A stretch of DNA of 64,000 nt, from the sequence record NC_052661.1; one strand, written 5' to 3'. The notes beneath the pieces were generated by a model. The model saw nothing but the letters and a program-made list of their open reading frames with translations. It ran no database searches and had not been told where the DNA came from. The first letter of the stretch is position 1; the number at the start of each line of letters is the position of its first letter. This stretch comes from Escherichia phage ukendt. Made by a program: the position numbers and the translations under genes. Positions 5,156 through 29,504 of the stretch are shown here, piece after piece.

Positions 5156-5305
5156 CTATTCGTCGTCTCCTACTCCGTGATCCAACTCATTAAACAACAG
5201 ATGTTCTGGAGAAGTTTCACGTTTTGGTTTCGTTTTCTTTATGTTGGACTTCAGCTCATTTGCCAAAGCACGAGAAAAGATCTTACGTTTCTGTTTACTT
5301 TTCAT
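5156..5305 (-). CDS. small basic protein (49 aa)
   Basis: ORF below the track size cutoff; SD GGAG 8 nt before ATG; K/R-rich. Confidence 0.4.
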   Translation of the reverse strand: MKSKQKRKIFSRALANELKSNIKKTKPKRETSPEHLLFNELDHGVGDDE

Positions 5306-5310
5306 AATTG

Positions 5311-5571
5311 TTACTCCGCAATTTGAGCCATGAGATCACGCAGTTCGGTAAAACCGCCTACGTATGTTACCTCCCCGTTCACTTCAGACAGAATTTGTGG
5401 AAATGTGCGTGGAGGAACTCCGGTAAGATCAACAACTGTTTTAGTCATTGATTCTAAATCGTAGTCTTGGTCAAGACTTAAATATTCAAACTGTTTATTG
5501 CGCATGGTTAATAGTTGTTTTGACATTTCGCAAAATTGACAGTTAGGTTTACCAAAAATTACAAATTCCAT
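5311..5571 (-). CDS. glutaredoxin/NrdH-like redoxin
   Basis: N-terminal CxxC active site (GKPNCQFCE), 86 aa, adjacent to RNR genes. Confidence 0.65.
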   Translation of the reverse strand: MEFVIFGKPNCQFCEMSKQLLTMRNKQFEYLSLDQDYDLESMTKTVVDLTGVPPRTFPQILSEVNGEVTYVGGFTELRDLMAQIAE

Positions 5572-6413
5572 TACCTCTCCTTATTAAGTAATACTGCTAA
5601 AGACCGTTCAATACCTTTATTTAAATCTGATTTTGTAAGATAGTGACTGGTTACTAATTGTGACTTCACCGGACGTGCTGCTGGAGCATTATAGGTTGAA
5701 GCTGATACCGCCGATATCTTAACAGGTTCTGGCATCTGTGTCAAGATCTTTTCCGCAAACTCCGCCCAAGAAATAAGATGGCTTCCTGCAAAATGGTAAG
5801 TCTTAACAGACCTTGACCAACCTGTTTTTAATACTTCAAAAATAGCTTCTGCTAAATCTGGAGCATATGTTGGACAAGAGAACTGATCAGCAACAATAAT
5901 AAAATCACGTTGTCCATCATTATAGCGAGACAACATGGTTTTTAGAAAGTTATTTCCAAATTCGCTATATACCGAGGCTGTTCGAATAATATATGCATTT
6001 GGGTTAACTCCTCGCACCATTTTTTCACCAAGTTCTTTCGTATACCCATAATTGTTTATTGGGTTAGGTGTAGTATCTTCAAAAATAGGATGAGAATAAT
6101 TAAAAATATAGTCTGTAGAAATATGCACAAAATCAATTTTAAGTTTACTGCACACTGCTGCAATGTTTGCAGGGCCGTAGGCATTAACAGCCAAAGCAGT
6201 AGCAAAATCATGTTCTGCTTTATCTACAGCCGTATAAGCAGCGCAATTAATAACACCATCTACATAATCTTCAATAATAGCGTTGCGCACGGCTTCAAAA
6301 TTTGTAATATCTACACGTTCTTTAGGATAAATTAAAGATACGTTTGAAGGAGCCACTTTACGTAAAGCTTGTCCCAGTTGTCCATTACCACCCAATACCA
6401 GATATGTTAGCAT
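5571..6413 (-). CDS. rmlD: dTDP-4-dehydrorhamnose reductase (RmlD-like)
   Basis: Rossmann start [17 protein letters not shown], ~280 aa, last gene of rml operon. Confidence 0.75.
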   Translation of the reverse strand: MLTYLVLGGNGQLGQALRKVAPSNVSLIYPKERVDITNFEAVRNAIIEDYVDGVINCAAYTAVDKAEHDFATALAVNAYGPANIAAVCSKLKIDFVHISTDYIFNYSHPIFEDTTPNPINNYGYTKELGEKMVRGVNPNAYIIRTASVYSEFGNNFLKTMLSRYNDGQRDFIIVADQFSCPTYAPDLAEAIFEVLKTGWSRSVKTYHFAGSHLISWAEFAEKILTQMPEPVKISAVSASTYNAPAARPVKSQLVTSHYLTKSDLNKGIERSLAVLLNKER

Positions 6414-6973
6414 ACACCCTCACTACGTAGCTGTTGAAAAGACTTAGCCATTGCATCTTTTGTTGATAAGATAGGTTTAAAATCTTCGTCAAAAATCATA
6501 TCGAAGCCCCAATCAATCCCTATATCAGGATCATCCCAACGTAAACTTTGCTCGCTGGAAGGGTCGTATGGAGTTGTGCATTTGTATTCGAAGATAGCAT
6601 CCATACTCAAGACTATAAAGCCATGTGCCAAACCAGGTGGAAGCCAGAACTGTGTATGGTGTCGTGCACGAAGAACAACACCGTCCCAAGCACCGTAAGT
6701 TGGACTGTCTTTACGTAAGTCTACAGCGAAATCCAATACTTCACCACTTACACAACGAACAAGCTTGCCTTGTGGATTATTTGTTTGGAAGTGCATTCCT
6801 CGCAAAACACCGAAGTTTGATTTAGACATGTTATCTTGAACGAAAGTTTGTTTACCAATAATATCTTCGTATTTTTGTTCATTGTATGTTTCTAAAAAGA
6901 AACCACGATCATCTTTATAAACGTCTGGTTTGATAATTACCGCACCTTCGATTTTTGTTTTTTCTACTTTCAT
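6407..6973 (-). CDS. rmlC: dTDP-4-dehydrorhamnose 3,5-epimerase (RmlC-like cupin)
   Basis: [10 protein letters not shown]...GMHFQ...[11 protein letters not shown]...YGAWDGVVL epimerase signature; start set at internal ATG 6973 (SD GGAGAG; ATGA overlap with rmlA stop). Confidence 0.75.
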
Positions 6974-7848
6974 TTTCTCTCCGCTAATTTGAGTAGGTAT
7001 TGCCCGTACTCTGTTTTCTTCAGTGAGTTTCCATGGTACACCAAAGTCTCTAAAGAAATCCACCCTTTTTTGAAAGCAATTTCTTCCAGGCACGCAATCT
7101 TCAATCCTTGGCAGTTCTCAATAGTCTGCACGAATTGACCAGCTTCCATCAGACTGGCGTGTGTTCCTGTGTCAAGCCAAGTAAATCCTCGTCCGAGAAC
7201 TTCTACTTGTAACTTCCTGTCTTCGAGGTAGCTGCGATTGATATCTGTGATCTCCAGTTCTCCACGCGAGGAAGGGGTTACTTCTAGTGCGCGTTGAACA
7301 ACAGAATTATCATAGAAATACAAACCTGTGACAGCATAATCTGATTTAGGATTTTCAGGTTTCTCTTCAATAGAAATAGCTTGACGATTACTCCCAAATT
7401 CAACCACGCCGAATCGTTCAGGATCTTTCACCAAATACCCAAAGATACAAGCTCCGCCCCAAACATCTACCATCTCACTGGCATTAATCAGTAGTTTACC
7501 AAAGCTTTGTCCGAAGAATAGGTTGTCACCTAAAATAAGAGCAACAGAGTCTTCTCCGATAAAATCTTTACCGATGATGAAAGCCTCCGCAAGACCTCGT
7601 GGCTCGGATTGGATTGCGTAAGTGAGTTTTATCCCAAACATAGACCCATCTCCGAGAAGATACTTAAAGTCTTCCTGATCGCCTGGTGTGGTGATGATTA
7701 AGATATCTTTAATGTCAGCCAACATCAATACCGATAAAGGGTAGTAGATCATGGGTTTGTCATACACAGGGAGCAATTGCTTGCTCACACTGCGTGTTAC
7801 CGGATGAAGGCGGGTTCCACTTCCTCCCGCCAAAATAATACCTTTCAT
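6970..7848 (-). CDS. rmlA: glucose-1-phosphate thymidylyltransferase (RmlA)
   Basis: [18 protein letters not shown] nucleotidyltransferase signature, 292 aa. Confidence 0.85.
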
Positions 7849-7856
7849 AACCCTCC

Positions 7857-8849
7857 TTAAATCTTCTCACTCCACCATTGAGGGTTGTTTAAGTACCATT
7901 CAATCGTTGAGTAGAGATCTTGTTCAAATGTAGAGTTTGCACTCCAACCCAGTTCAGACTCTATTTTAGAAGGATTGATTTCATAACGCAAGTCATGTCC
8001 TTTACGATCTTCAACAAAAGTTATCAAGTTGGAAGAAGGGTAGGTTCCTGCTTCTGGATGTACAGCATCCATGTAGTCACAAACCATATAGATGATCTCC
8101 ATATTGGTTTTGGGATTACGTGTTCCAATATTATACGTTTGACCTGGTTCTCCACCTGTTGCCACTTGAAGAATAGCTCGCGCATGATCCTCCACAAAAA
8201 GCCAGTCTCGCACCTGATCGCCTTTACCATACACTGGAATCTTTTTATTCGTCAAGATACTTGTGATGATTTTTGGGATCAGCTTTTCTGGATGTTGATA
8301 AGGTCCAAAGTTATTGGAGCAGTTGGTTATCACAACAGGTAAGTCGTAGGTACGGTGCCAAGCTTTCACAAGATGGTCAGATGCTGCCTTAGACGCACTG
8401 TACGGGCTTGAAGGGGCATAAGCTGTCTCTTCGGTAAAAGGAACGCCAGAGTCTGCCATATCGCCGTACACTTCGTCTGTGGAGACGTGTACGAACATCT
8501 TCAGTTTATTCTTTGGGAGGAGCCTTGCAGCTTCCAATAAATTGTATGTACCAATAATATTGGAGTCGATGAAAGCTCGTGGATTCTTGATAGAATTATC
8601 CACATGACTCTCTGCCGCTAAGTGAATGATGAAATCGGGATTGCACTCTACTACTAAACTTTTGACCTGGGCTTCGTTTGCCAAATCTGTTATACTTAGT
8701 TTAGCGTGAGTGATATCGCCTACATTCTTAATGTCTGCTGCATAGCTCATCTTATCAACGACAAAAACTTCGTTATTGGGATCTTGACAAAGAGAGCGCA
8801 CCACGGCGCTCCCAATAAAACCAAGACCACCTGTTACCAGATAGCGCAT
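7857..8849 (-). CDS. rmlB: dTDP-glucose 4,6-dehydratase (RmlB)
   Basis: [21 protein letters not shown]-binding motif, SDR YxxxK (YSASKAAS), 330 aa. Confidence 0.85.
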
Positions 8850-13836: not shown

Positions 13837-14835
13837 TCACCATTTAGTATGATTTGTTAAAAGTTGACGATGTTGAATCCAGCCTTTGAAATTGCCAGAC
13901 CAAAACTTACCATTACGATCTACATGGGTAATACCTGGTTCCCAAGAGTTAAAATCCCAAGGAGCATTGATAAACAAATCTTCAAAACAGTTCTCTCCAT
14001 ATTGTTCGCATGTTTCTTGAATTGGAGTGGCTTGATGTTCAAACGGAGAAGCATGAACCTTGCGCCCAGTCAGCAAGCGACCATAGATATCTAAAGCTTT
14101 ATCTTTAGTTGCATTTAAACGACGATAGCTAACCTGTGCACAACATGAAGCTGAAATAGCTTTGGCTTCTTCCAAAGTAAGCACAACAACTTCTCCAGAT
14201 TCATCTTGAACGTAGTATCCACCAAAAACAAAATGATCGTCACCTTCTGTGCCAATATTATCGTAGAAATGGTCTACATAAGGTGTGTGCCATTGCCCTG
14301 GTTTCAGAACTTCTGGTGTAGATCCTTCATACTCTTTGTGCATCTCTTTAGCCAAAGCTTCGATAGTAGGATCGGCTTCTTTGTCATCACGTAGCCACCA
14401 GAAATTTTCATATTCTGTTGCTGTCAGAACTGTTTTAATTCGTTGGAAAGGTTCCAGAAGACGGTTTGCAACTTGTTTGTGGTACCCTGCCAAAGAGAAT
14501 TCTTCTGCAAAACGTGCTGCACTAAGCGCGGCAAGATCCCACCACTCTTGAGCAGTATAACCTGCATCAATAAGAGCGTCATGATCAACACCTTTATCCT
14601 GCATACCAGGTTGGTTAGCCCCAAAACGATAAGGACGAGCAGGTTGATTTCGCACCATTTCAATCAGTGTTTTAACAGGTATAGCACGGCTAGAAGCAGC
14701 ATTACGACTGAACAGGCGGTGAGTCATCAATTCTGAATGAATAATACGTGGATATTCTAGTTCAAAAGTTACAATCTCTTTTCCGTCTTCAGTGATGGAA
14801 TGCGCAATAATACTAGCCGAAATCTGTTTTGTCAT
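13837..14835 (-). CDS. ThyX-like flavin-dependent thymidylate synthase homologue (extended)
   Basis: MTHRLFSRNAASSR matches the ThyX (R)HRxxSxxxxSxR motif; 332 aa is ~80-100 aa longer than typical ThyX. Confidence 0.55.
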   Translation of the reverse strand: MTKQISASIIAHSITEDGKEIVTFELEYPRIIHSELMTHRLFSRNAASSRAIPVKTLIEMVRNQPARPYRFGANQPGMQDKGVDHDALIDAGYTAQEWWDLAALSAARFAEEFSLAGYHKQVANRLLEPFQRIKTVLTATEYENFWWLRDDKEADPTIEALAKEMHKEYEGSTPEVLKPGQWHTPYVDHFYDNIGTEGDDHFVFGGYYVQDESGEVVVLTLEEAKAISASCCAQVSYRRLNATKDKALDIYGRLLTGRKVHASPFEHQATPIQETCEQYGENCFEDLFINAPWDFNSWEPGITHVDRNGKFWSGNFKGWIQHRQLLTNHTKW

Positions 14836-14844
14836 TTTTTCTCC

Positions 14845-15453
14845 TTAGTTTTTAAAATTGTTCAAAGTGTTAAAAACATCCAAACATGTTAGCCACTGAT
14901 CTTCTAAACCTGTGATCACAACATTTGGTTTTTTCTTTAGTTCTTCTAGATGGTTATCTTTATAAGGCGTATTAAAATATATTTTAACCACTTCATCTGG
15001 AAAATATAGTAGGTTATCAGCCCTGTCATCTATTGCTATATCACAAGGCAATAAGTATTTTTCTTTCGTAGCAAAAAAGCCGTTACCAGATCCTTTGCTA
15101 AAATCAATCGTATCTAACGTTCTTAAAACATGCTTATGTTTAGAACTTAAGTGACCACCTTTTGTCACACTTGCGATCAAAAGATTGCTACCTTTCCTTG
15201 AAACATACTTTAAGAAATCTGGCATACCTGGAACAAAACCCATTGTATCATAGAGATGAGGATTATCCAGAAATCCGTAAGGATCTATATTGAACTCCTC
15301 CCTGAAACCAGGAAAGTAGTTGGTAAGATCATAGTCTGCATTTTTTGTGAATGTGTCTATCTTAACACCAAGTCCACTAATCTTATTCAACCATTCTAAC
15401 CAAGCAATATCTAATGGAGCCACAACTAAATCCCAATCACATACTATCTGCAT
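14845..15453 (-). CDS. HAD-superfamily phosphatase, probable 5'(3')-deoxyribonucleotidase
   Basis: N-terminal DxD nucleophile (VCDWDLV) and later IAIDDRADN (motif IV-like). Confidence 0.45.
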   Translation of the reverse strand: MQIVCDWDLVVAPLDIAWLEWLNKISGLGVKIDTFTKNADYDLTNYFPGFREEFNIDPYGFLDNPHLYDTMGFVPGMPDFLKYVSRKGSNLLIASVTKGGHLSSKHKHVLRTLDTIDFSKGSGNGFFATKEKYLLPCDIAIDDRADNLLYFPDEVVKIYFNTPYKDNHLEELKKKPNVVITGLEDQWLTCLDVFNTLNNFKN

Positions 15454-15489
15454 AAAACCTCCTCTCTCTTTTAGTATAGTTATCTTATA

Positions 15490-16065
15490 CTAACTTTCAA
15501 TTTCCTGCAATAGGATTTTGACTATTTGTTTACGGCGTTTTGCTACTGTGCTTTCAGGTTCTATTTTACGCTTCTTCAGCCACGCTTTATCTTTCTTAGC
15601 TCTACACAAAGCTATCGCTTCTTTTTCAGCTTTTGCTTCTTCAAAAGATATGTCTTGCTTGTCTGCATAAGCAAGAATAGAGTTGCACAATTTACAAACC
15701 ATTCGCAAATCTTCTTCTTTCACATAGATCAAACGGAAAACAAAAAGGGGAATATCCTCAAAACATTGAAGTTGTTTTGCTGCGTGAATATGATCCACTT
15801 GGAAGTCTTTCATTCCTCCTTTATGTCCACATATTTCGCACTCACAATTCCAAACTTGTTTTGGTTTTCCAGTTTTCTTGTCTATCATTACATTGCCGTC
15901 TTTATCTACACGATCAACTTTAAAACGCCTTGCATTGATAACCTTAATTTTATTAGGGTGTCTCATCCATGCTTTTCTAAAACATCCCCTAAGATAAGTA
16001 TAAAATTCAGCTTGTGTTTTCCAGGGTGTTCCTTCACCCCACATTATTTTTGGTTCACCTGCCAA
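15490..16065 (-). CDS. HNH endonuclease (free-standing, homing-type)
   Basis: CECEICGHK...VDHIHA...CKLCN (Cys/His HNH pattern); TTG start. Confidence 0.55.
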   Translation of the reverse strand: MAGEPKIMWGEGTPWKTQAEFYTYLRGCFRKAWMRHPNKIKVINARRFKVDRVDKDGNVMIDKKTGKPKQVWNCECEICGHKGGMKDFQVDHIHAAKQLQCFEDIPLFVFRLIYVKEEDLRMVCKLCNSILAYADKQDISFEEAKAEKEAIALCRAKKDKAWLKKRKIEPESTVAKRRKQIVKILLQEIES

Positions 16066-16111
16066 TATTGCTCACCTTTTTAGCTGTATATTCCCCTGGT
16101 GGGATATTATG

Positions 16112-16144
16112 TTTAAAAAACAAAAGGCGGTCTAACCCCGCCTT
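16112..16144 (-). terminator. intrinsic terminator (minus strand)
   Basis: 7-bp stem AAGGCGG/CCGCCTT, 7-nt loop, U-tract in transcript orientation. Confidence 0.5.
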
Positions 16145-16232
16145 GCACATTGTTTCTGGAATAGTCAAAGTTAGTAAAAGTTTATCACCTTTTCGGTTGA
16201 ATATTTTATAAACTTCTCCTGCTCCATATTGT

Positions 16233-16634
16233 TTAGTATTGCTCGCCACTAATACGTTCCTTAAGTTGTTTAATAGCTTCAACTGCATCTACATAAGAAG
16301 AGTTATACATGTGTTTCAGTGCCACTCGGATTAAAGGATCTTTTGTGAAGAAATCAATAAGAAGCATAGCTTGATCATGTTTAGCTGCATTTGTCATAGA
16401 TGGATAATTTTCACGAACCATATACGTGTTATTTTGCATAAGGGTTCTTTCTAGTTCAATACAATGAATAGCTTTATCTAGGTTAATCTGACGTTCACCT
16501 TTAATACGTGTTGCATATTTTGCCAATTTGCAAAAACAAGGTGTGCCACCAACCAAATAAGCTAGTTCAATAGGTTGCATTGCCATTTTTGTGTAGTGAT
16601 CACCGTCAACCTGATTATCAAAAGCATTAGACAT
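16233..16634 (-). CDS. hypothetical protein (133 aa)
   Basis: ORF; motifs GDHY, QPIEL; function unknown. Confidence 0.5.
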   Translation of the reverse strand: MSNAFDNQVDGDHYTKMAMQPIELAYLVGGTPCFCKLAKYATRIKGERQINLDKAIHCIELERTLMQNNTYMVRENYPSMTNAAKHDQAMLLIDFFTKDPLIRVALKHMYNSSYVDAVEAIKQLKERISGEQY

Positions 16635-16854
16635 AATTTTCCTCCTGAATTCCTACTGCGCCTTCTTCTGGGTAGTCTGTATAATAAGCTACCCTACCTT
16701 GATAGATAACATCACCATCATTATTGTAGATTGCTGTATCTTCTTGAATTGTTATTTCAACATCAAGTAAATCTGGGTCTTTCTCGATGGTATAGTTCAA
16801 ACCTAACATTTCAAACAGTTCGAAAATTTCGTTACCTGTTAATGTAATGCTCAT
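16627..16854 (-). CDS. hypothetical protein (75 aa)
   Basis: start set at ATG 16854 with SD AAGGAGG; the track's GTG start 16890 lies in the promoter region. Confidence 0.45.
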   Translation of the reverse strand: MSITLTGNEIFELFEMLGLNYTIEKDPDLLDVEITIQEDTAIYNNDGDVIYQGRVAYYTDYPEEGAVGIQEENYV

Positions 16855-16881
16855 ATTTCCTCCTTTTATTGTGGTTAGCAG

Positions 16882-16910
16882 AGTATACACTAATATAAAA
16901 TTTTTGTCAA
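16882..16910 (-). promoter_or_regulatory. sigma70-like promoter TTGACA-N17-TATACT (minus strand)
   Basis: read on reverse complement: aTTGACAaaaattttatattagtgTATACT. Confidence 0.45.
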
Positions 16911-16911
16911 T

Positions 16912-16934
16912 AAAAAAGGGAGCAATAAGCTCCC
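16912..16934 (-). terminator. intrinsic terminator (minus strand)
   Basis: hairpin GGGAGC-aataa-GCTCCC followed by U6 on minus-strand transcript. Confidence 0.55.
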
Positions 16935-16940
16935 TGATTA

Positions 16941-17900
16941 TTAGATTCCAATGATAGTTGCTGCTCGTTTATCCTTGGATCTGGTGTTTGCTCTACTACG
17001 TGACAAACCTCCGCAAGATTCACAACGAATGATATCGAAAGAACTTACCGCAGTGTGGTATTGTTTACCAGTAACAACGTGAACGTGATCACTGCCACAA
17101 CGAGAACAACGGACCTTCTCATCTGGGTAATAAGCGGATAAGTTAGGATGCTGCGGAATCCACGGAAGGATTTTCATATACAAATCACGGAGTGAAACAA
17201 CATCACCATCATTGTAAATCTGCATACGTTCAAAAGCATCACGATCACCTTCACAACATGCTTTCCATAAAGGGAACCCCTCGTTATCCAGTTTTTCACT
17301 TTCTGTTTCGAAATATGCTCCCATTTCTTTAAGGGAGTTGGAAGGAAGTGCAAATTGTTTCTTAGCTGCCTTCAATGTATCAACAACTACATAATTAGAA
17401 GGAGGAGCCATATCGTGATATGCAAATCGTTGGTTAATGTATGCACGGTCAAACTTATATCCGTTGTGTGCCACAACTACATCTGCCTCATTCAGAAGGT
17501 TCCAAAGATCTTGGCAAAGCTCCCAATCATCTGTATGATCAATATCAAAAAGAGGATAAGAAGACAAGTTCTTACCTTCTACCTCACCAGTATACAGGTC
17601 AGCAGAAGAGTAAGATAACAAATAACCCCTACGAATTACTTGATCTGGAGAAATGAAGGCTTTGAATCGACGGAAAGTATATGCAATCTCTGGTGCAGTT
17701 TCAACATCAATAATTTTAATAACTGGTTGTTTCTTTTTAACTGGCTCTTGTTTACTTGCTCCAAATCGTGCAAGGAAATCGTTCACTGTGCTTTTTCTTG
17801 TTGGACTACCTAAAACAATTGCTGCAATATTGCGAGAAGACATACCCTCTGCACTCATACTAAGGATATCTGCTTTCTGCTCTTCTGTTAATCTGCTCAC
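16941..17900 (-). CDS. DEDD-family 3'-5' exonuclease with N-terminal HTH and C-terminal zinc ribbon
   Basis: Exo I IIDVETAP, Exo II VVAHNGYKFD, Exo III YNDGDVVSLRDLY; N-terminal HTH-like LSMSAEGMSSRNIAAIV; CSRCGSDH...CESCGG. Confidence 0.55.
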   Translation of the reverse strand: MSRLTEEQKADILSMSAEGMSSRNIAAIVLGSPTRKSTVNDFLARFGASKQEPVKKKQPVIKIIDVETAPEIAYTFRRFKAFISPDQVIRRGYLLSYSSADLYTGEVEGKNLSSYPLFDIDHTDDWELCQDLWNLLNEADVVVAHNGYKFDRAYINQRFAYHDMAPPSNYVVVDTLKAAKKQFALPSNSLKEMGAYFETESEKLDNEGFPLWKACCEGDRDAFERMQIYNDGDVVSLRDLYMKILPWIPQHPNLSAYYPDEKVRCSRCGSDHVHVVTGKQYHTAVSSFDIIRCESCGGLSRSRANTRSKDKRAATIIGI

Positions 17901-18586
17901 TCTGCCTCCTGTTGCGAGATGTATGACTGAAGCATACTCTCAAATGTTGTATCGTCATTATCCCAGCGTTTCATGTATACCAACTGGAAAATTGTTTCTA
18001 TCCATTCATCTGTTGTCATATGGACTTCTTCTCCATCCCAAGAAGTAAAATTAACACCATCTGGGAACCATGAGTAGTAAGTATCTTTAACTGTTTGGAA
18101 AAGTTCTGCTTGAGTTTTACAAGCTGAAAGAAGATTAAAACAAGTAATATCTCCGAACTTAATATCAAAATCTTGATAAGGTCGGATACTATCTGTTTTA
18201 TCTCCCATTAGCATCTGATATGCTAACCAGTAACTGCCCCAACCTTTAACTTCTTTCTTTTTACCTTTATCTACGATCCATATATCGCCAATAGACTCGT
18301 CAATAAGAATTATATCTGGATTTTTAAATACTCCATCCTCTTTGTAGAAATTAAAAAGGATACTAGGAGTATGTAAACTATCTTTATCTATAGACACTAC
18401 GATATAAGAAAATTTACCCGTCCTTTTATAATCTTTATAACCTTGGAAACCATACTTCTCTAACTCATCATCAGCTTCTATTACAGTAACAACATCACCA
18501 TTGTGGAACTCCACAAGATAATCTTTGGTTTCTGAAAGCTGAAGTGGTTTGATATCTAATCGTTCAGATTTATATTCTACAGGCAT
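17897..18586 (-). CDS. hypothetical nuclease-like protein (229 aa from ATG; frame stays open a further 147 codons upstream)
   Basis: ORF from track; IDKDS, ILIDESIGD, LMGDKTDSI acidic motifs; see finding on the start-less extension. Confidence 0.5.
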   Translation of the reverse strand: MPVEYKSERLDIKPLQLSETKDYLVEFHNGDVVTVIEADDELEKYGFQGYKDYKRTGKFSYIVVSIDKDSLHTPSILFNFYKEDGVFKNPDIILIDESIGDIWIVDKGKKKEVKGWGSYWLAYQMLMGDKTDSIRPYQDFDIKFGDITCFNLLSACKTQAELFQTVKDTYYSWFPDGVNFTSWDGEEVHMTTDEWIETIFQLVYMKRWDNDDTTFESMLQSYISQQEAE

Positions 18587-19027
18587 TTTGAAGGCGTGTC
18601 TGAAAGTTTTTCCTACGCCAATAACTCCGCAATATTTTTCTAAACGTAGATGTTTTAGAATACCTAAGACTTTTGTTTTAGCTGCTTGGAAGGTGTGTCC
18701 GATATCTTCTGGCGGGTATTGCTTATCAATGATTTCGAACTCTTCCTTTGTGAAGGGACGTTTGTTTTTGGAGGCTCTTTCTGCATTTGTATCTCCTAGC
18801 CAACCTCCAATTTTAGTCTTGCTTTTACCCCAAAACTCTGTCTTATTTTTAAATTCCTTTTGAGCACCTGAAGGGATGTGCTTCGCAATGATTGTTCTTT
18901 TCTCTAATGCAGACGCTGCTTGGAAAGCGATCTGATCATAATCAATTGCAGCTATTGTTTCTTCGTTGACATATAAATGAAGATCTTCAGGTTTAATTAA
19001 AATATAACCGCTAATATTTCCCCCTAA
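18587..19027 (-). other. in-frame open extension (147 codons) with no ATG/GTG/TTG
   Basis: hand translation LGGNISGYILIKPEDLHLYVNEETIAAIDYDQ...YCGVIGVGKTFRHAFK runs without a stop into the ATG at 18586; bounded upstream by the in-frame TAA of ORF 19028..19237. Confidence 0.5.
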
Positions 19028-19237
19028 TTATTCATCGTCATCCTCTGTTGAGAATGTTTTAGTATACGGACATTGACGACTTTTCGGGATTGCTATAACT
19101 TCATCTTGGTTAGCGTTAGAATAGTAACAATATTTTGTATTGCCATTAACTTCAGAATCAGACAAGATTAAAGTAATTTGACCTGCTGCTACTGTGAAAC
19201 TAAAAGCTAAAAGAATGACTGTTAGAATCTTTTTCAT
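19028..19237 (-). CDS. small secreted/lipoprotein-like protein (69 aa)
   Basis: signal-peptide-like MKKILTVILLAFSFTVAAGQ; SD GGAGG; directly downstream of a terminator. Confidence 0.55.
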   Translation of the reverse strand: MKKILTVILLAFSFTVAAGQITLILSDSEVNGNTKYCYYSNANQDEVIAIPKSRQCPYTKTFSTEDDDE

Positions 19238-19247
19238 AACGCCTCCT

Positions 19248-19276
19248 AAAAAGCCTACCTCATTAAGTAGGTAGGC
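19248..19276 (-). terminator. intrinsic terminator (minus strand)
   Basis: 8-bp stem GCCTACCT/AGGTAGGC, 8-nt loop, followed by UUUUUA on minus-strand transcript. Confidence 0.55.
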
Positions 19277-19309
19277 ATAGTATCATAACTAATCCCGCAA
19301 GTCAAGAAC

Positions 19310-20188
19310 TTATTTAAGGATTGTTGCTTTGGTTAAATCTTCCATCAGACCTCGAATCTCATTGAAGCACAGAAGGACTGAAGCTTCAATACTGCCTTCT
19401 TCGTCTGCAAAATATTTCGGAAAACGTAGTTTAGAAAGTTTAAACTCTTTATCCACTACAAAATCTACAACACCGTCATATTCAAGACCGATTGCAACAA
19501 CATCTTTACCATCTTCTTTTAGTTCGACAGCTTTAGACTCGTATAGGGATTCTTTACTCCAAACAACAACGCCCTCGCTATCCTCCATTTTGATATAATT
19601 TCCTAGAGTAATACGATCTGCTTCGTGATTCTCCAGCAATTCACCAAAACCTTTTACAATAGCTTCTTCGTGCACACTAAAACCTACCGAAGGGAAAGTC
19701 CCCAGAACGGAACGGAGGAAAGAAGTAATCTCTTCTGCAACCTTTTTACTTCCATTAAGAACATAAAGAAGATTCGTAGTTTTATCCAAGACAACATAGT
19801 TAAAGAAATCTTCAGGTTCTGTTTCAGGCAATAGTGCAAATTCAATATCTTCTTTCATTGCTTTGACTACTTCTTTATCGACATAAAACTCTTTACCCTC
19901 GCTCTCCATATCCTGACGCATTTCTTCTAGACGTTCATTCAGAATACGTTTAACTTTCTTTTTATCTACCTTCTTCACAGATTGACCTACATTAAGCAGT
20001 TCAAGATCTGAAAACTCTTTTACAAATTTGGAGTCATCTTCGAAACGAACAAGACCGATAGTGTGTGACTGGGAGCCTTCTGCTGTTACAAATTCCAGAG
20101 GAATATCTGTAATGTTGTTAAGGGATGCTACAGAAGCATTGTCACCAACAACCATAGGCAGAGCGGATTTAAAAGATTTTACAAACAT
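19310..20188 (-). CDS. hypothetical protein (292 aa), possibly RdgC-like
   Basis: ORF; weak overall resemblance to recombination-associated RdgC; not verified. Confidence 0.45.
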   Translation of the reverse strand: MFVKSFKSALPMVVGDNASVASLNNITDIPLEFVTAEGSQSHTIGLVRFEDDSKFVKEFSDLELLNVGQSVKKVDKKKVKRILNERLEEMRQDMESEGKEFYVDKEVVKAMKEDIEFALLPETEPEDFFNYVVLDKTTNLLYVLNGSKKVAEEITSFLRSVLGTFPSVGFSVHEEAIVKGFGELLENHEADRITLGNYIKMEDSEGVVVWSKESLYESKAVELKEDGKDVVAIGLEYDGVVDFVVDKEFKLSKLRFPKYFADEEGSIEASVLLCFNEIRGLMEDLTKATILK

Positions 20189-20244
20189 GTTTCCTCCTAT
20201 TTAATACATCTCACATTACCGCCCGTAAAGGGCGGCTTACAACA

Positions 20245-20970
20245 TTACTTGTTAATAATACCTGCAATATTAGGTTTGACAAAGGTCGATGGTTTCATGA
20301 TCTTACCTTTATCATCAAAGAACACATACACTTTCTGTTTTTCATTATAAACAGCATGAACACCAGTGTATGCCCCTTCTGGACGATTGGCATTTCGTTC
20401 TTCAATTGCAGCGCATTCTTGTGCAATGGCTGAATCGATATCCGAAGTTTTCCAAGTTTTCAGCAACTGTTGTTTAGTTGGATACTTGGAATCATTACTT
20501 TTCAATACCTCTTTAATAACTTTCTTTTCTGGATATTTTGAACGGATTAGAGTGTCACGAGACATACGCATAATACCAGCAGCCATTAGTGCCATTTGAA
20601 CTGGCTCTGTAAATGTTTGTTCCAAAGCATCAAAATCAGTATACACAGTTGGAGTAAAAACATCGCCTACAGCATAGTCCAAGAAATTCATCGTATGTTC
20701 TTCACCAAAGAACATGTAAGTCAGATAACTGGATACTACAAAAATATCTGCTGCTGCGTCCAAGAGTTCTACATGATCGTTTACTTTCGCGGCTGTTTCA
20801 TACTCTTTAAGTTCTTCACGAACGAATCCGATTTGGGACATAAATAGCTCTTGAGTGAATTCAGGTTGTTCACCACCTCGTGCTTTGGCATTCCAATCAA
20901 TCACGTGCTTTGCTGCATTTTTGAAAAATTCAGTATCGAATTTAATATCTTTAAAAAAATTCTCGATCAT
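20245..20970 (-). CDS. MazG-like nucleoside triphosphate pyrophosphohydrolase domain protein
   Basis: REELKEYETAAK...VELLDAAADIFVV resembles the MazG ExxE...ExxD motif. Confidence 0.45.
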   Translation of the reverse strand: MIENFFKDIKFDTEFFKNAAKHVIDWNAKARGGEQPEFTQELFMSQIGFVREELKEYETAAKVNDHVELLDAAADIFVVSSYLTYMFFGEEHTMNFLDYAVGDVFTPTVYTDFDALEQTFTEPVQMALMAAGIMRMSRDTLIRSKYPEKKVIKEVLKSNDSKYPTKQQLLKTWKTSDIDSAIAQECAAIEERNANRPEGAYTGVHAVYNEKQKVYVFFDDKGKIMKPSTFVKPNIAGIINK

Positions 20971-20979
20971 TATAACTCC

Positions 20980-21162
20980 TTATTTAAAATAGCTTTCTAG
21001 AAAGTTGCTAATATTTACTACAGTCTCACCCATGTAAATTCCTGCGAAACCGAAAACAAGCATACGTGGAATATTGAAATACCATTTATCCGCTGGAAAA
21101 GATGCCAGAATTACAATAGCAATTGCTATCAGCATCATAAGAATTGTTGCTAAAATTATCAT
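20980..21162 (-). CDS. small membrane protein (60 aa)
   Basis: start at internal ATG with SD GGAGG; ATGA overlap with upstream ORF; two hydrophobic segments. Confidence 0.4.
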   Translation of the reverse strand: MIILATILMMLIAIAIVILASFPADKWYFNIPRMLVFGFAGIYMGETVVNISNFLESYFK

Positions 21163-25995: not shown

Positions 25996-26005
25996 ATAAC
26001 CTCCT

Positions 26006-26476
26006 CTAAGCTGGCATGATTAAAAAAGAACTCTCCACTTCAAAATGCCAATCATCTACAAGCCCTGATTCCCAATCCTTCTCTTCATGGAAAGAGCAAA
26101 TCCAACGGTACATACCTGGCGGTGTATTCTCAACATCTTCTGGCAACCCATAATCCAAAGCTGTCTTACCGTTCTCGGTAAAACCAGGATGGAGATTAGG
26201 AGCTTTCAGTACAGAAACCATACCTCCAACATCTACAGCCACGATCCACTCTGTCATGTATGGGCTGTCATATTGAGGCTCATCAGAACCTACCTCAACA
26301 GCCTCTGTGCGTAAGATGATAATAGCCTGCTCTGTGATTGGGGCTTTGACAATATACCCGTGATCCTCAAAAAGATCGATAACCTCGAACTCATCGCCGT
26401 TTTCGATACCATAGCTCTTATTCAAAGAGATAAACTTCGGGTTATCATCGTAAGCTTTAGTTACTTTAATTTTCAT
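26006..26476 (-). CDS. hypothetical protein (156 aa)
   Basis: ORF in early block. Confidence 0.5.
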   Translation of the reverse strand: MKIKVTKAYDDNPKFISLNKSYGIENGDEFEVIDLFEDHGYIVKAPITEQAIIILRTEAVEVGSDEPQYDSPYMTEWIVAVDVGGMVSVLKAPNLHPGFTENGKTALDYGLPEDVENTPPGMYRWICSFHEEKDWESGLVDDWHFEVESSFLIMPA

Positions 26477-26697
26477 TTTTCCTCCTTCACTTTAACCTCA
26501 AATTCTACAGGCTTACCCTCAATGTAAAAACACTGATACTCTGCCTTATCATCCTCATCACGAGGCCAAGTTACCAAGGAGTTATAGCAATCTTCTGGTG
26601 CTTTGAAGATGGTTTTAGTCTCCACAGTAACATTCCCATTAAGTGTTGCCAATACCACCCACCCAGCTACAGGGATCATAGTGCCTCCACTTTCCAC
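26473..26697 (-). CDS. hypothetical protein (74 aa)
   Basis: ORF; 4-nt overlap. Confidence 0.4.
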   Translation of the reverse strand: MESGGTMIPVAGWVVLATLNGNVTVETKTIFKAPEDCYNSLVTWPRDEDDKAEYQCFYIEGKPVEFEVKVKEEK

Positions 26698-26858
26698 GTT
26701 TTACCCTTATCAACCAAGGTCTTTGCTACAGCATACTCCTTCCCATTAACAATGAAATAATAAACTATAAAAGATTTTCCGATTGTTACTGTCTTAGTAA
26801 CCTCTACGCGTTTAACACCTTGCATGTATTTCGCCTTACCGGAATAAAGTAAAATCAT
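26676..26858 (-). CDS. hypothetical protein (60 aa)
   Basis: ORF; overlaps neighbours. Confidence 0.35.
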   Translation of the reverse strand: MILLYSGKAKYMQGVKRVEVTKTVTIGKSFIVYYFIVNGKEYAVAKTLVDKGKTWKVEAL

Positions 26859-27136
26859 TTTGCATTCCTCTTATTATTGATAACATCCATAGCAGTATAT
26901 GGTTTATTAGTGCCATGATACTCCAGAATCATTGGAGAGCCTTCTTGCACTACTTCAAAAATACCATAAACAGAACTTTCAGCAAATACCATTTGCTTCG
27001 TGCCTTCATCGTTTACAACGAGAGAAAACTTCTTGCCTGTCCCGTTGAGGATCTCGTATTTCTTGCCAGCAGTGAATAATCCAGAGTACCACTCGTTATC
27101 TGTTGCTTTTACACACTTCAGGAAAGTCTTGATCAT
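26855..27136 (-). CDS. hypothetical protein (93 aa)
   Basis: ORF. Confidence 0.45.
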   Translation of the reverse strand: MIKTFLKCVKATDNEWYSGLFTAGKKYEILNGTGKKFSLVVNDEGTKQMVFAESSVYGIFEVVQEGSPMILEYHGTNKPYTAMDVINNKRNAK

Positions 27137-27486
27137 TTCTTTTTGCTCCTCTTTTTAGATTTCTCATACAAACCTAACACAGCCGCCTCTTTTGCACAAG
27201 TAGGAACTGAAGTCATTCCTCTTCGTTTTGCTTCTGGTAGTTGCAAAGTCCATATTCCCCACCAATAAATTTGGTCTGCCGTGAGTGGTTCAGCCATTGG
27301 ATCTGCCTCCTGCTCCTCAAGACGTTGCAACGCTTCTTCAATCTTCTCGATTGGTGTGTCAAAGACGAATGCCTCCGTATCAAATTTATCTTTCTTAGGA
27401 ACTGATTTGGCTACTTTGAGAACCTCGTTTTTCGGTTTCTTAGTAACGTTCTTTGGCTTTGATAACTTCTTCGGTGTTTTCGCCAC
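27133..27486 (-). CDS. lysine-rich putative nucleic-acid-binding protein (117 aa)
   Basis: K-rich N- and C-termini (MAKTPKKLSKPKNVTKKPK...KKRSKKK). Confidence 0.45.
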   Translation of the reverse strand: MAKTPKKLSKPKNVTKKPKNEVLKVAKSVPKKDKFDTEAFVFDTPIEKIEEALQRLEEQEADPMAEPLTADQIYWWGIWTLQLPEAKRRGMTSVPTCAKEAAVLGLYEKSKKRSKKK

Positions 27487-27679
27487 TTACTACCTCCATA
27501 CGATCTAAAAAGTCATTCACAAATCTCCAGTAACGTTGACCTGTTCTAAGATCTTCATAGATAACCACAGGATCAAACACTTTAGATATTCCGGCAGGTT
27601 TTGGAAATTCCACTACCGTATATAAACCACCTTTTGCTACACAAGAATAGGTTACGCCTGTAATTGGATAGTTGCTCAT
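27440..27679 (-). CDS. hypothetical protein (79 aa)
   Basis: ORF. Confidence 0.4.
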   Translation of the reverse strand: MSNYPITGVTYSCVAKGGLYTVVEFPKPAGISKVFDPVVIYEDLRTGQRYWRFVNDFLDRMEVVSGENTEEVIKAKERY

Positions 27680-27870
27680 TTCTTTACGTACTCCATGATT
27701 GGGGTATGGTCGCCAGTAAGTGTAACACGGCTGTAGGACACATCTTGTGTCTTCAGTGTATCAATCCACTCTAAGAAGTGTTCTTTCGCTTCTGTGTAGT
27801 TCTGTGTGCCTTTAACAACGTGTATACCATCTAGAGTTACACGGAATACCATTTGAATAACGTCTTTCAT
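27676..27870 (-). CDS. hypothetical protein (64 aa)
   Basis: ORF. Confidence 0.4.
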   Translation of the reverse strand: MKDVIQMVFRVTLDGIHVVKGTQNYTEAKEHFLEWIDTLKTQDVSYSRVTLTGDHTPIMEYVKK

Positions 27871-27983
27871 TTCTTACCTCCTTTGTTGTCAAAATAACTT
27901 ACCAGAACATCGTGAACCACACACATGGCAAAAATCAGAACAATTGTTGTCAGGACTGGATTCTCACTAATTAGTGCTATCAT
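27867..27983 (-). CDS. small membrane protein (38 aa)
   Basis: internal ATG with SD GGAGGTGG; single hydrophobic helix; the longer track ORF would overlap the upstream gene by ~100 nt. Confidence 0.3.
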   Translation of the reverse strand: MIALISENPVLTTIVLIFAMCVVHDVLVSYFDNKGGKK

Positions 27984-28290
27984 CTTTAACCACCTCCAAT
28001 TGCCTTTCGAGTTTGACTTTGTTTGAGAACTGATAATGACACAACTTACATTGCATGTCAACAATCTGATCGTGATTTAACCCTACAATTTTAACTTCCT
28101 TTGCACCATCCCATTCCAAATACTCAAAGCCATCCAAATGATTACTCTTGTCCAACAGGAATGCTATCTGCTGCCATTCAATCTGAATATCATTTAAATG
28201 ATATGCTGCACAGAAGATATCCTCATAGTAAAAGACGACCATTGTCATTGCTTCGTCCAGTACAACTACCTCTTGTCTTGTAAATCTCAT
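27967..28290 (-). CDS. hypothetical protein (107 aa), first gene of minus-strand block
   Basis: SD GGAGG before ATG at 28290. Confidence 0.45.
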   Translation of the reverse strand: MRFTRQEVVVLDEAMTMVVFYYEDIFCAAYHLNDIQIEWQQIAFLLDKSNHLDGFEYLEWDGAKEVKIVGLNHDQIVDMQCKLCHYQFSNKVKLERQLEVVKDDSTN

Positions 28291-28334
28291 TCTAGCCTCC
28301 TAAACGCGTCTCTGACGCACTTTTTATATATAAG

Positions 28335-28363
28335 ATGATAAATCACCTTACCTAGTAAGTAAA
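28335..28363 (-). promoter_or_regulatory. candidate early promoter TTTACT-N17-TATCAT (minus strand)
   Basis: read on reverse complement upstream of the 28290 start; a small hairpin (GCGTC-TCT-GACGC, ~28306..28318) lies in the 5'UTR. Confidence 0.35.
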
Positions 28364-28542
28364 CTTGCTCTACGAGCCTCTTATGAAGCTTATGTTATAG
28401 GCTATACTATTGCTACCTGTTTAAGCAAGGTTTTTGCACACAGAAAATAATTTTTAATAAAACTCTTGACTTTTGTGTTCGAAGTATGCTACCCTAGAAA
28501 TCTATTAACGAGCGAAGCGAGTTAAGGTTTTAGGTTGTTGAT

Positions 28543-28656
28543 GTAGTACTCTGTACTCAAGTACTGTACTCCGTACTAGATTAATAATTATTAAATATTA
28601 ATAATAAATAATTATTAGATCTAACAAACAGGTACAGTGTATCAGAACTGGTACGT
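28543..28656. repeat. GTAC(T) direct-repeat cluster flanking a 40-bp A/T-only tract (candidate origin or regulatory hub)
   Basis: five GTACT copies in tagtactctgtactcaagtactgtactccgtactag, then a pure A/T tract, then further GTAC motifs (ggtacagtg...ggtacgtacag). Confidence 0.5.
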
Positions 28657-28711
28657 ACAGATCAACTTCTATCAATTAAAAAATAAAATAATAAATTATT
28701 ATAAATAATAC

Positions 28712-28740
28712 TTGATCTATAGATCAGTATGAAGTATAGT
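28712..28740 (+). promoter_or_regulatory. promoter TTGATC-N17-TATAGT overlapping the palindrome GATCTATAGATC
   Basis: ttgatctatagatcagtatgaagTATAGT; perfect 12-bp palindrome with two GATC sites at 28714..28725. Confidence 0.45.
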
Positions 28741-28772
28741 ACGGAACATCTTAACAAGAATGGAGGTGTGCA

Positions 28773-28958
28773 ATGATTAGTGAGAATCCGTGCAAATGGC
28801 ATCATGTGCCTATTAAAGATTGTATGTCTTGTAATCCACGTTCTATTTATAACATTGCATCTTATGATGATGACAATGTGTTAGACGATGATGAAGGCTG
28901 GGAGGATTTAGATTGGACTGGTTATGAAACCAAAAAGGATAAAATTATTCCTAGTTGA
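28773..28958 (+). CDS. hypothetical Cys-containing protein (61 aa)
   Basis: SD GGAGG before ATG; first plus-strand gene. Confidence 0.5.
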   Translation: MISENPCKWHHVPIKDCMSCNPRSIYNIASYDDDNVLDDDEGWEDLDWTGYETKKDKIIPS

Positions 28959-28995
28959 CTTAAGATATCCTTCGTGCTAAACTAGAAATGAGGAG

Positions 28996-29247
28996 ATGCC
29001 GATCACTCCCCATTTGGGGTTCGAAGGATATATGCAAAATAGCTTTTATTTTAGGTGCCGTGCTTGTAATAGGCATTTGACAAACCACTCCAGACGTGAT
29101 AAAAATGGAGTCATCAAGGAATCAGACCTCTGTTCTATTTGCACAGGTTTGGCTTTTGATGATAGTCCCGAAAGGGTTTATCAGCATCAATGTATAACAG
29201 ACGTTCTCGTGTCAAACTTGGTAGAGGACGAACAACTAACAGATTAG
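28996..29247 (+). CDS. small zinc-finger protein
   Basis: CRACNRH...CSIC; start ambiguous (28996 or ATG 29032 with SD AAGGA). Confidence 0.45.
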   Translation: MPITPHLGFEGYMQNSFYFRCRACNRHLTNHSRRDKNGVIKESDLCSICTGLAFDDSPERVYQHQCITDVLVSNLVEDEQLTD

Positions 29248-29255
29248 GAGGAACA

Positions 29256-29504
29256 ATGTCTCTATTAGAAAAACACGTGTTTGAAGATGGTAACGGCAAT
29301 GCAGTTTTTCTTTTCCATCCAGAAAAATACACATCTGAAAACAATGGTACAACTTCTATTGTAATCACTAAAGATGTTAAAGTTATTGATTTCTTGGCTC
29401 TGATGCGAGAGATGGATCTTGAAATTAATACTTTTAACGCAGAAGCTTTGGTTGTTGCTCTTCTGGAAAAGAAAGATAGTGAAGAAGTAGCAGAATATGC
29501 TTAA
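29256..29504 (+). CDS. hypothetical protein (82 aa)
   Basis: start at internal ATG with SD AGGAGG (track ORF begins earlier at 29190). Confidence 0.5.
   Translation: MSLLEKHVFEDGNGNAVFLFHPEKYTSENNGTTSIVITKDVKVIDFLALMREMDLEINTFNAEALVVALLEKKDSEEVAEYA

What the first reader, a model, noticed from the sequence alone, without database searches (positions are those of the whole stretch)
16941..17900. DEDD exonuclease fused to an HTH and a zinc ribbon
Exo I (DVET), Exo II (HNGYKFD) and Exo III (YNDGD) motifs sit between an N-terminal helix-turn-helix-like segment and a C-terminal CxxC...CxxC ribbon. This architecture is unusual for a proofreading or RNase T-type exonuclease and could indicate a sequence-targeted nuclease used in host DNA degradation, recombination or RNA processing.
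Basis: partly seen in the sequence, partly recalled or inferred. Interest (0 to 1): 0.4.

Follow-up and report, generated by a model that had tools for sequence, protein, structure and literature searches.

The report
Phage exonuclease with HTH and zinc ribbon
This gene encodes a real but already catalogued phage 3'-to-5' DNA exonuclease with two small DNA-binding add-ons, a design shared by thousands of phage proteins, so it is ordinary although nobody has tested what it does.

Summary
ORF 16941..17900 (- strand, 319 aa) has an N-terminal three-helix HTH, a DEDD exonuclease core (D65/E67, N146/D151, Y229/D233) and a C-terminal CxxC...CxxC zinc ribbon. All of these are conserved in homologues.

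It is not unusual. The window is a phAPEC8-like coliphage, and the protein is about 99% identical to phAPEC8 gp143. It matches PHROG 403 ("DNA polymerase exonuclease subunit") end to end, with relatives in 1,586 phage records and about 3,600 cluster representatives. At least 173 phage records carry the HTH.

The core is DEDDy, closest in fold to family-B polymerase exonuclease domains. It is not DnaQ or RNase T (DEDDh).

The "polymerase subunit" label is doubtful. The phage's own PolA, 54 kb away, carries its own Exo I-III motifs.

The gene is translationally coupled (GTGA overlap, AGGAGG) to a FEN-type 5'-3' exonuclease. In most lineages examined it lies between replication nucleases and nucleotide-supply genes (DUF3310, NT5C, ThyX, RNR).

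The best reading is a DNA-end-processing or nucleotide-salvage exonuclease. Sequence targeting is unsupported. Interest is low, and the function is untested.

The parts
16941..17900 (-). Whole gene, 319 aa: HTH, DEDDy 3'-5' exonuclease and zinc ribbon. About 99% identical to phAPEC8 gp143 / YP_007348487.
17757..17900 (-). N-terminal three-helix HTH domain (aa 1-48). The conserved motif is G-x-SSR-x-IA...KSTVND.
   Evidence: AF2 helices 6-17, 22-30 and 33-47. Homologues hit HTH_23, HTH_38, HTH_7 and HTH_SB. Profile versus PDB. Alignments.
17721..17756 (-). Flexible basic linker (aa 49-60).
   Evidence: pLDDT below 50 for residues 49-55. Length is variable in the alignment.
17130..17720 (-). DEDDy exonuclease core (aa 61-257) with an RNase H-like fold closest to family-B polymerase exonuclease domains.
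17700..17708 (-). Exo I motif, D65-V-E67.
   Evidence: Invariant in 30 sequences.
17448..17465 (-). Exo II motif, N146-G-Y-K-F-D151.
   Evidence: D151 invariant; N146 and F150 at least 90% conserved.
17202..17216 (-). Exo III motif, Y229-N-D-G-D233. This is Y-x3-D, the DEDDy subtype.
   Evidence: Y229 invariant; D233 at least 90% conserved.
16986..17117 (-). C-terminal zinc ribbon (aa 262-305): C265-x2-C268 and C293-x2-C296 flanking three beta strands.
   Evidence: All four Cys at least 90% conserved. Strands 273-282, 287-293 and 299-305 at pLDDT about 95. Weak zinc-ribbon Pfam hits.
16944..16985 (-). Conserved basic C-terminal tail (aa 306-319, R-x-R-x-N-x2-x-K-x2-R...).
   Evidence: Alignment consensus.
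17905..17910 (-). AGGAGG Shine-Dalgarno, 4 nt before the GTG start. It lies inside the last codons of the upstream gene. The GTG start overlaps the upstream TGA stop (GTGA), giving translational coupling.
   Evidence: The same arrangement occurs in phage EmilieFrey.
17897..19015 (-). Upstream partner gene: FEN-type 5'-3' exonuclease. About 372 aa if it starts at ATT 19015. Databases annotate it as only 229 aa (17897..18586).
   Evidence: PHROG 107. Homologues carry PF02739. Full-length homology. No ATG, GTG or TTG in the upstream part.
16917..16935 (-). Terminator-like hairpin plus T-run, 6 nt after the stop codon. It closes the two-exonuclease transcription unit.
19253..19276 (-). Terminator-like hairpin upstream of the unit, after the RdgC-like gene.

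Best explanation
The gene encodes a stand-alone, catalytically competent DEDDy 3'-to-5' exonuclease of the widespread phage family PHROG 403 / Pfam RNase_H_2. The catalytic core resembles the proofreading domain of family-B DNA polymerases. It should remove nucleotides from 3' ends by two-metal catalysis, using D65, E67, D151, D233 and Y229.

The enzyme has two small accessory modules. A resolvase/transposase-type HTH is tethered by a flexible linker. A C-terminal zinc ribbon with a basic tail packs onto the core. These most likely hold the enzyme on DNA: the HTH on duplex and the ribbon and tail on the single strand or junction. This would give substrate grip or processivity rather than sequence targeting.

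The protein is made from the same short transcription unit as a FEN-type 5'-3' exonuclease and is translationally coupled to it. I infer that the two act together on DNA ends and nicks. They could process replication and recombination intermediates, or degrade host DNA to dNMPs. Those dNMPs would feed the adjacent nucleotide-supply genes (DUF3310 gp1.7-like kinase, NT5C, MazG, ThyX, RNR).

Shown: the fold, the motifs, their conservation, the coupling and the synteny. Inferred: DNA as the substrate, the roles of the accessory modules, and the physiological role.
For: Identity:
- Pfam and PHROG matches.
- Invariant catalytic residues and conserved Cys4.
- Confident AF2 model.

Not a missing proofreader:
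- phAPEC8 PolA (865 aa, 54 kb away) has its own WDIEANG, VAHNGINYD and YCIYD motifs. They align to Exo II and Exo III of this family.
- The phiKMV-like PolA also has an N-terminal exonuclease-like region.

Coupling:
- GTGA overlap plus AGGAGG, conserved in Justusliebigvirus.
- Terminator-like hairpins bracket the unit.

Synteny:
- A 5'-3' exonuclease lies upstream within 5 kb in phAPEC8, EmilieFrey, AlexBoehm, Epa24, TbilisiM32, L012, L013 and L015.
- A thymidylate-synthase or other nucleotide-supply gene (DUF3310, NT5C, ThyX, thymidine kinase, dUTPase, RNR) lies downstream in phAPEC8, AlexBoehm, Epa24, ICP1, EmilieFrey and L012-L016.
- DUF3310 is the domain of the T7 gp1.7 nucleotide kinase (PMC10700055, PMC12846349).
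Against: - No member of this family has been assayed in any paper I could find.
- Synteny within large early/middle DNA-metabolism gene blocks is weak evidence for a specific pathway.
- Two lineages break the pattern. In the mycobacteriophage MilleniumForce the gene lies between the lysis genes and the integrase. In the crAss-like phage DAC15 it lies inside a tRNA array.
- The evidence that PolA has its own exonuclease is motif-level plus a weak hhalign score (E=0.013), not a strong domain hit. Pfam found only the polymerase domain.
- Physical interaction with the 5'-3' exonuclease is untested.
Confidence: 0.55

Rival explanations
1. It is what the database label says: a trans-acting proofreading subunit of the phage DNA polymerase, analogous to the epsilon subunit (DnaQ) of Pol III.
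For: - RefSeq and PHROG label it 'DNA polymerase exonuclease subunit'.
- The fold is closest to polymerase proofreading domains.
- There are sub-threshold NCBIfam hits to DnaQ models.
- In L015 and TbilisiM32 a PolA gene lies a few kb upstream.
Against: - phAPEC8 PolA carries its own Exo I, II and III motifs. So does the phiKMV-like PolA, with variation.
- The gene is about 54 kb from polA in phAPEC8.
- DnaQ NCBIfam scores are 17-22 bits against cut-offs of 196-245.
- Exo III is Y-x3-D, not the H-x4-D of epsilon.
- Homologues occur outside any replication module.
- The label is transferred by homology, and no experiment was found.
Confidence: 0.15
2. It is an RNA exonuclease, for example one that trims the 3' ends of phage tRNA precursors as RNase D or RNase T do.
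For: - The crAss-like DAC15 homologue sits inside a tRNA array.
- This phage encodes 11 tRNAs about 10 kb away.
Against: - Structural neighbours rank DNA polymerase exonuclease domains well above RNases.
- Conserved synteny is with DNA nucleases and dNTP-supply genes.
- The phiKMV-like locus examined shows only DNA-metabolism genes and the RNA polymerase around the homologue, and no tRNA genes.
Confidence: 0.08
3. One reading: the HTH directs the exonuclease to a specific DNA sequence, making it a sequence-targeted nuclease.
For: - A transposase/resolvase-type HTH is fused through a flexible linker.
- Such HTHs are often sequence-specific. This point rests on general knowledge.
Against: - The putative recognition helix K36-S-T-V-N-D is almost unchanged across phages with unrelated genomes and hosts. 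A phage-specific target is therefore unlikely.
- About two thirds of the best family representatives do not align over this HTH, yet keep the core and the ribbon.
- Exonucleases need ends, not sites.
Confidence: 0.07
4. It is a counter-defence enzyme that destroys a nucleic-acid immune signal or effector, such as cyclic or linear oligonucleotides or retron msDNA.
Against: - There is no PADLOC match.
- The neighbourhood is DNA and nucleotide metabolism, not an early anti-defence cluster.
- The similarity to Cap18 and DEDDh proteins is only at the superfamily level.
Confidence: 0.05

Closest known systems
PHROG 403 / phAPEC8 gp143 (YP_007348487), annotated as 'DNA polymerase exonuclease subunit' or 'DnaQ-like 3'-5' exonuclease' in rV5-like, phAPEC8-like, Nankokuvirus, phiKMV-like, ICP1 and actinophage genomes
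   Same: Full-length profile match (E=6.8e-107, residues 5-318). About 99% identical to phAPEC8 gp143, at the same genome position.
   Different: Nothing differs. This is that protein. The family name is a homology-derived label with no experimental basis that I could find.
3'-5' proofreading exonuclease domain of family-B DNA polymerases (archaeal PolB, Pol epsilon, E. coli Pol II, T4/RB69 gp43)
   Different: This protein is stand-alone, with no polymerase domain. It carries an HTH and a zinc ribbon that the polymerase domains lack. Sequence identity is only 15-19%.
DnaQ / Pol III epsilon and RNase T (DEDDh exonucleases)
   Different: Exo III is Y-x3-D rather than H-x4-D. NCBIfam DnaQ scores are about one tenth of the cut-off. 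There is no known polymerase or theta-binding region.
Phage T7 host-DNA breakdown and salvage set: gp3 endonuclease, gp6 5'-3' exonuclease and gp1.7 nucleotide kinase
   Same: The gene-neighbourhood logic is similar: a FEN-type 5'-3' exonuclease, sometimes an endonuclease VII, a DUF3310 (gp1.7-like) protein and dNTP-supply genes around this gene.
   Different: T7 has no separate 3'-5' exonuclease of this family. The salvage role here is an inference from synteny only.

Membership tests
DEDD 3'-5' exonuclease superfamily, DEDDy subtype | Exo I motif D-x-E | tested here: met
   D65-V-E67, invariant in 30 homologues.
DEDD 3'-5' exonuclease superfamily, DEDDy subtype | Exo II motif N-x2-3-(F/Y)-D | tested here: met
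   N146-G-Y-K-F-D151. D151 is invariant.
DEDD 3'-5' exonuclease superfamily, DEDDy subtype | Exo III motif Y-x3-D (as opposed to H-x4-D in DEDDh) | tested here: met
   Y229-N-D-G-D233. Y229 is invariant and D233 is at least 90% conserved.
DEDD 3'-5' exonuclease superfamily, DEDDy subtype | RNase H-like alpha/beta fold | tested here: met
DEDD 3'-5' exonuclease superfamily, DEDDy subtype | Metal-dependent 3'-5' exonuclease activity | not testable with these tools
   Needs a biochemical assay.
Pfam RNase_H_2 (PF13482) / PHROG 403 | HMM score above the family threshold over the domain or the full length | tested here: met
   PF13482: 39.1 bits against a cut-off of 22. PHROG 403: E=6.8e-107 over profile positions 3-319 of 321.
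DnaQ / DNA polymerase III epsilon subunit | Equivalog HMM score above the NCBIfam cut-off | tested here: not met
   Best score 22.4 bits against a cut-off of 196.
DnaQ / DNA polymerase III epsilon subunit | DEDDh Exo III motif (H-x4-D) | tested here: not met
   Exo III is Y-x3-D.
DnaQ / DNA polymerase III epsilon subunit | Binds and proofreads for a polymerase that lacks its own exonuclease | tested here: inconclusive
   The phage PolA shows its own Exo I-III motifs, but only at motif level (hhalign E=0.013). Binding is not testable here.
Zinc ribbon | Two CxxC knuckles flanking a three-stranded antiparallel sheet | tested here: met
   C265/C268 and C293/C296 are at least 90% conserved. Strands 273-282, 287-293 and 299-305 are predicted. 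Pfam zinc-ribbon models hit only below threshold.
Zinc ribbon | Binds zinc | not testable with these tools
   Needs metal analysis.
Homeodomain-like / resolvase-type HTH (Pfam HTH_23, HTH_38, HTH_7) | Three-helix bundle with a helix-turn-helix | tested here: met
   AF2 helices 6-17, 22-30 and 33-47 at pLDDT about 90.
Homeodomain-like / resolvase-type HTH (Pfam HTH_23, HTH_38, HTH_7) | Significant HMM match | tested here: inconclusive
   No Pfam hit for this protein at E<=1. Aligned homologues hit HTH_23 (3e-6), HTH_38 (1.5e-4) and HTH_7 (5.6e-4). The domain profile against PDB gives E=0.003-0.4.

The most novel reading that the evidence does not exclude
The HTH-exonuclease-zinc-ribbon protein and the co-translated FEN-type 5'-3' exonuclease form a dedicated two-polarity nuclease machine. 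The HTH and the ribbon clamp it onto duplex ends or nicks. The machine converts host DNA into dNMPs for the adjacent gp1.7-like kinase, ThyX and RNR module. That would be a conserved and so far undescribed host-DNA salvage pathway in many large lytic phages.
Probability: 0.2. Interest if true: 0.4.

Novelty: already known. Interest (0 to 1): 0.15.

Why it matters
The finding matters little as a discovery. The gene, its family and its architecture are already in public phage annotations. Two modest points are useful.

1. The widely propagated name "DNA polymerase exonuclease subunit / DnaQ-like" is probably misleading. The enzyme is DEDDy and PolB-like. It fails the DnaQ models. It coexists with a polymerase that has its own exonuclease motifs.

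2. The family is very large (about 3,600 clusters at 50% identity) and has never been assayed. It also shows conserved coupling to a 5'-3' exonuclease and to nucleotide-supply genes. A simple biochemical study would therefore annotate thousands of phage genes.

Tried and rejected
- Direct sequence search of the protein against PDB gave only insignificant hits (E>=0.3). Fold comparison was needed.
- Pfam on the protein itself finds no HTH and only sub-threshold zinc-ribbon models.
- PADLOC gave no hit, so a defence or counter-defence relationship was dropped.
- NCBIfam gave only far-sub-threshold DnaQ hits, so DnaQ membership was rejected.
- Pfam and PDB searches of the PolA N-terminus alone gave nothing. 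The claim that PolA has its own exonuclease domain therefore rests on motifs and a weak hhalign match.
- Five literature searches found no experimental work on this family.
- The afdb50 fold library was unavailable.
- BLASTP of the window's gp152 against the Epa24 DUF3310 protein was not significant. Only the comparison with the L015 DUF3310 protein gave E=8e-4.
The position of the ribbon and HTH relative to the active site could not be measured.

Full report
**Where the window comes from.** Megablast of window 14000-21000 finds 84 phage records, 66 of them covering at least 80% of the query at mostly 95-99% identity. The best matches are phAPEC8-like coliphages (Phapecoctavirus, Stephanstirmvirinae). 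Window coordinates map one-to-one onto phAPEC8 NC_020079.1 (window x = record x + 31875). The finding is phAPEC8 gp143 (YP_007348487), annotated "DNA polymerase exonuclease subunit". tblastn gives 99.4% identity to phAPEC8.

**The observation.** The ORF listing returns a single ORF at 16941..17900 on the minus strand: 319 aa with a GTG start.
- The motifs read by the first stage are all there: D65-V-E67 (Exo I), H-N146-G-Y-K-F-D151 (Exo II) and Y229-N-D-G-D233 (Exo III).
- The two cysteine pairs are C265-x2-C268 and C293-x2-C296.
- Pfam gives RNase_H_2 (PF13482) at E=9.5e-10, above threshold, plus a weak DNA_pol_B_exo1 hit and several sub-threshold zinc-ribbon models.
- PHROGs gives phrog_403 at E=6.8e-107, aligned from residue 5 to 318 against profile positions 3-319 of 321. 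The whole three-part architecture is therefore the family consensus.

**Conservation.**
- A search of 5.8 billion proteins gave 83 relatives. Thirty of them, down to 27% identity, were aligned.
- D65, E67, D140, D151 and Y229 are invariant. N146, F150, D233 and all four cysteines are at least 90% conserved.
- A regex survey of the 80 relatives of at least 240 aa finds the CxxC...CxxC pattern in 74 and the KST[VI] HTH motif in 54.
- Exo III is Y-x3-D, so this is the DEDDy subtype found in polymerase proofreading domains, RNase D and WRN. It is not the DEDDh subtype of DnaQ and RNase T.

**Structure.**
- AlphaFold2 on that alignment gives mean pLDDT 92.7 and pTM 0.78.
- The model has three N-terminal helices (6-17, 22-30, 33-47) and a disordered linker (49-55). 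The exonuclease core follows, then a three-stranded sheet (273-282, 287-293, 299-305) between the two cysteine knuckles. That is a classical zinc ribbon.
- Foldseek against PDB puts archaeal family-B polymerases and Pol epsilon first (E about 3e-7).

**The HTH.**
- The protein itself gets no Pfam HTH hit. Aligned homologues hit HTH_23 (3e-6), HTH_38, HTH_7, HTH_28 and HTH_SB.
- A profile of 20 N-terminal domains weakly finds an HTH protein (2lvs), the Sleeping Beauty PAI subdomain and NarL.
- Together with the confident three-helix model, this is a resolvase/transposase-type HTH.
- Its putative recognition helix (K36-S-T-V-N-D) is almost invariant across relatives from phages of different hosts. 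That argues against recognition of a phage-specific sequence.

**How common it is.**
- tblastn finds relatives in 1,586 phage records from Mycobacterium, Escherichia, Pseudomonas, Vibrio, Xanthomonas, Klebsiella, Acinetobacter and other hosts.
- Residues 1-110 (HTH plus Exo I) match at least 80% of their length in 173 records.
- An exhaustive phmmer search over 1.84 billion cluster representatives gives 3,588 hits at E<=1e-3 and 618 at E<=1e-30. Of the best 150, 48 align from within the first 20 residues, and essentially all extend through the ribbon.
- The architecture is therefore a standard phage design, not an oddity.

**Is it a polymerase subunit?**
- The only DNA polymerase in phAPEC8 is a family-A enzyme of 865 aa at record 103624-106221, about 54 kb away.
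- Its polymerase domain matches the T7 DNA polymerase (E=1e-22).
- Its N-terminus carries WDIEANG, VAHNGINYD and YYCIYD. hhalign places these on Exo II and Exo III of the present family (E=0.013).
- The phiKMV-like PolA, whose phage also has a homologue of this gene, likewise starts with LDLETE...VAHNAMFE.
- NCBIfam DnaQ models score 17-22 bits against cut-offs of about 200.
- In the mycobacteriophage MilleniumForce the homologue sits between the lysis genes and the integrase. In the crAss-like DAC15 it sits inside a tRNA array.
- The "subunit" label therefore looks like transferred homology. Five literature searches found no experiment on this family.

**Context.**
- The gene's GTG start overlaps the TGA stop of the upstream gene (GTGA). 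An AGGAGG lies 4 nt upstream. The same arrangement occurs in Justusliebigvirus EmilieFrey.
- The upstream gene belongs to phrog_107, "exonuclease". Its homologues carry PF02739, the 5'-3' exonuclease N-terminal domain.
- Terminator-like hairpins lie at 19276-19253 and 16935-16917. They bracket a unit made of a small signal-peptide ORF, the 5'-3' exonuclease and this gene. A near-consensus promoter follows at 16910-16882.
- Eleven lineages were examined. A 5'-3' exonuclease lies upstream within 5 kb in eight of them, sometimes with an endonuclease VII between.
- Downstream genes for DUF3310, NT5C, MazG, ThyX, thymidine kinase, dUTPase or RNR are present in most lineages.
- DUF3310 is the domain of the T7 gp1.7 dGMP/dTMP kinase (PMC10700055, PMC12846349).
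- This pattern fits a role on DNA, either in end processing during replication and recombination or in turning host DNA into dNMPs. It remains inference from synteny.

**Verdict.**
- The protein is an already catalogued member of a very large, biochemically unstudied phage family.
- The most useful corrections are the DEDDy, PolB-like classification and the doubt about the "polymerase subunit" name.
- Interest is low (0.15).

Noticed in passing
window 17897..19027 (- strand): The upstream 5'-3' exonuclease is annotated as 229 aa (17897..18586) in phAPEC8 and many relatives. The frame is open to 19027 and is homologous over its whole length to 330-380 aa relatives. Invariant acidic residues D29 and D31 lie in the unannotated part. 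That stretch contains no in-frame ATG, GTG or TTG. The likely start is ATT at 19015, just after a GGGGGA Shine-Dalgarno. This matches the N-termini of homologues (M-GYPVV...).
   Followed up: yes
window 18664..18786 (- strand): The 40-aa 'hypothetical protein' annotated in phAPEC8 (gp266) lies in another frame inside the extended 5'-3' exonuclease ORF. It is probably a spurious gene call.
   Followed up: partly
window 19028..19237 (- strand); protein P0088: A 69-aa ORF with a signal-peptide-like N-terminus (phrog_4641, function unknown) ends in the same frame directly before the exonuclease ORF. In one relative (P0088, 444 aa, 48 member sequences) the stop codon is absent and the two are called as one fused protein. 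It is unclear whether that is a real fusion or a gene-calling artefact.
   Followed up: partly
window 16233..16634 (- strand): The 133-aa protein two genes downstream (phrog_10946) gets no Pfam hit. It aligns with a DUF3310 protein from locus L015 at E=8e-4 over the GxHY...KY core. It sits where DUF3310 (the T7 gp1.7 nucleotide-kinase domain) sits in other lineages.
   Followed up: partly
window 16882..16935 (- strand): A terminator-like hairpin (AGGGAGC-TTATT-GCTCCCT plus a T-run) lies 6 nt after the stop codon. It is followed immediately by an 11/12 sigma-70 consensus promoter (TTGACA-17-TATACT). Together they look like a compact terminator-promoter junction between operons.
   Followed up: no
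L009 4576..5484 (Bacteroides crAss-like phage DAC15): A homologue without the HTH is embedded in an array of ten tRNA genes, with HNH endonucleases nearby. This context is quite different from the replication and nucleotide module seen elsewhere.
   Followed up: no
L015 6001..6960 (protein P0074): This homologue keeps the HTH and all the exonuclease motifs but has lost the zinc-ribbon cysteines. The ribbon's metal site is therefore dispensable in at least one lineage.
   Followed up: no
L015 10652..12960: The ribonucleotide reductase large-subunit gene downstream of the homologue carries a LAGLIDADG domain inserted between two halves of the RNR C-terminal domain. This is likely an intein or a homing endonuclease.
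   Followed up: no
window 5256..8534 (- strand): The phage carries a block of four nucleotide-sugar genes: glucose-1-phosphate thymidylyltransferase, dTDP-4-dehydrorhamnose 3,5-epimerase and two nucleotide-sugar epimerases. This looks like a dTDP-rhamnose-type pathway. phAPEC8 also has four glycosyltransferase genes next to its primase/helicase, outside the window.
   Followed up: no
window about 26000..28000: GC skew flips from negative to positive here. This coincides with the switch from minus-strand to plus-strand genes and with the tRNA array (27268..29273).
   Followed up: no
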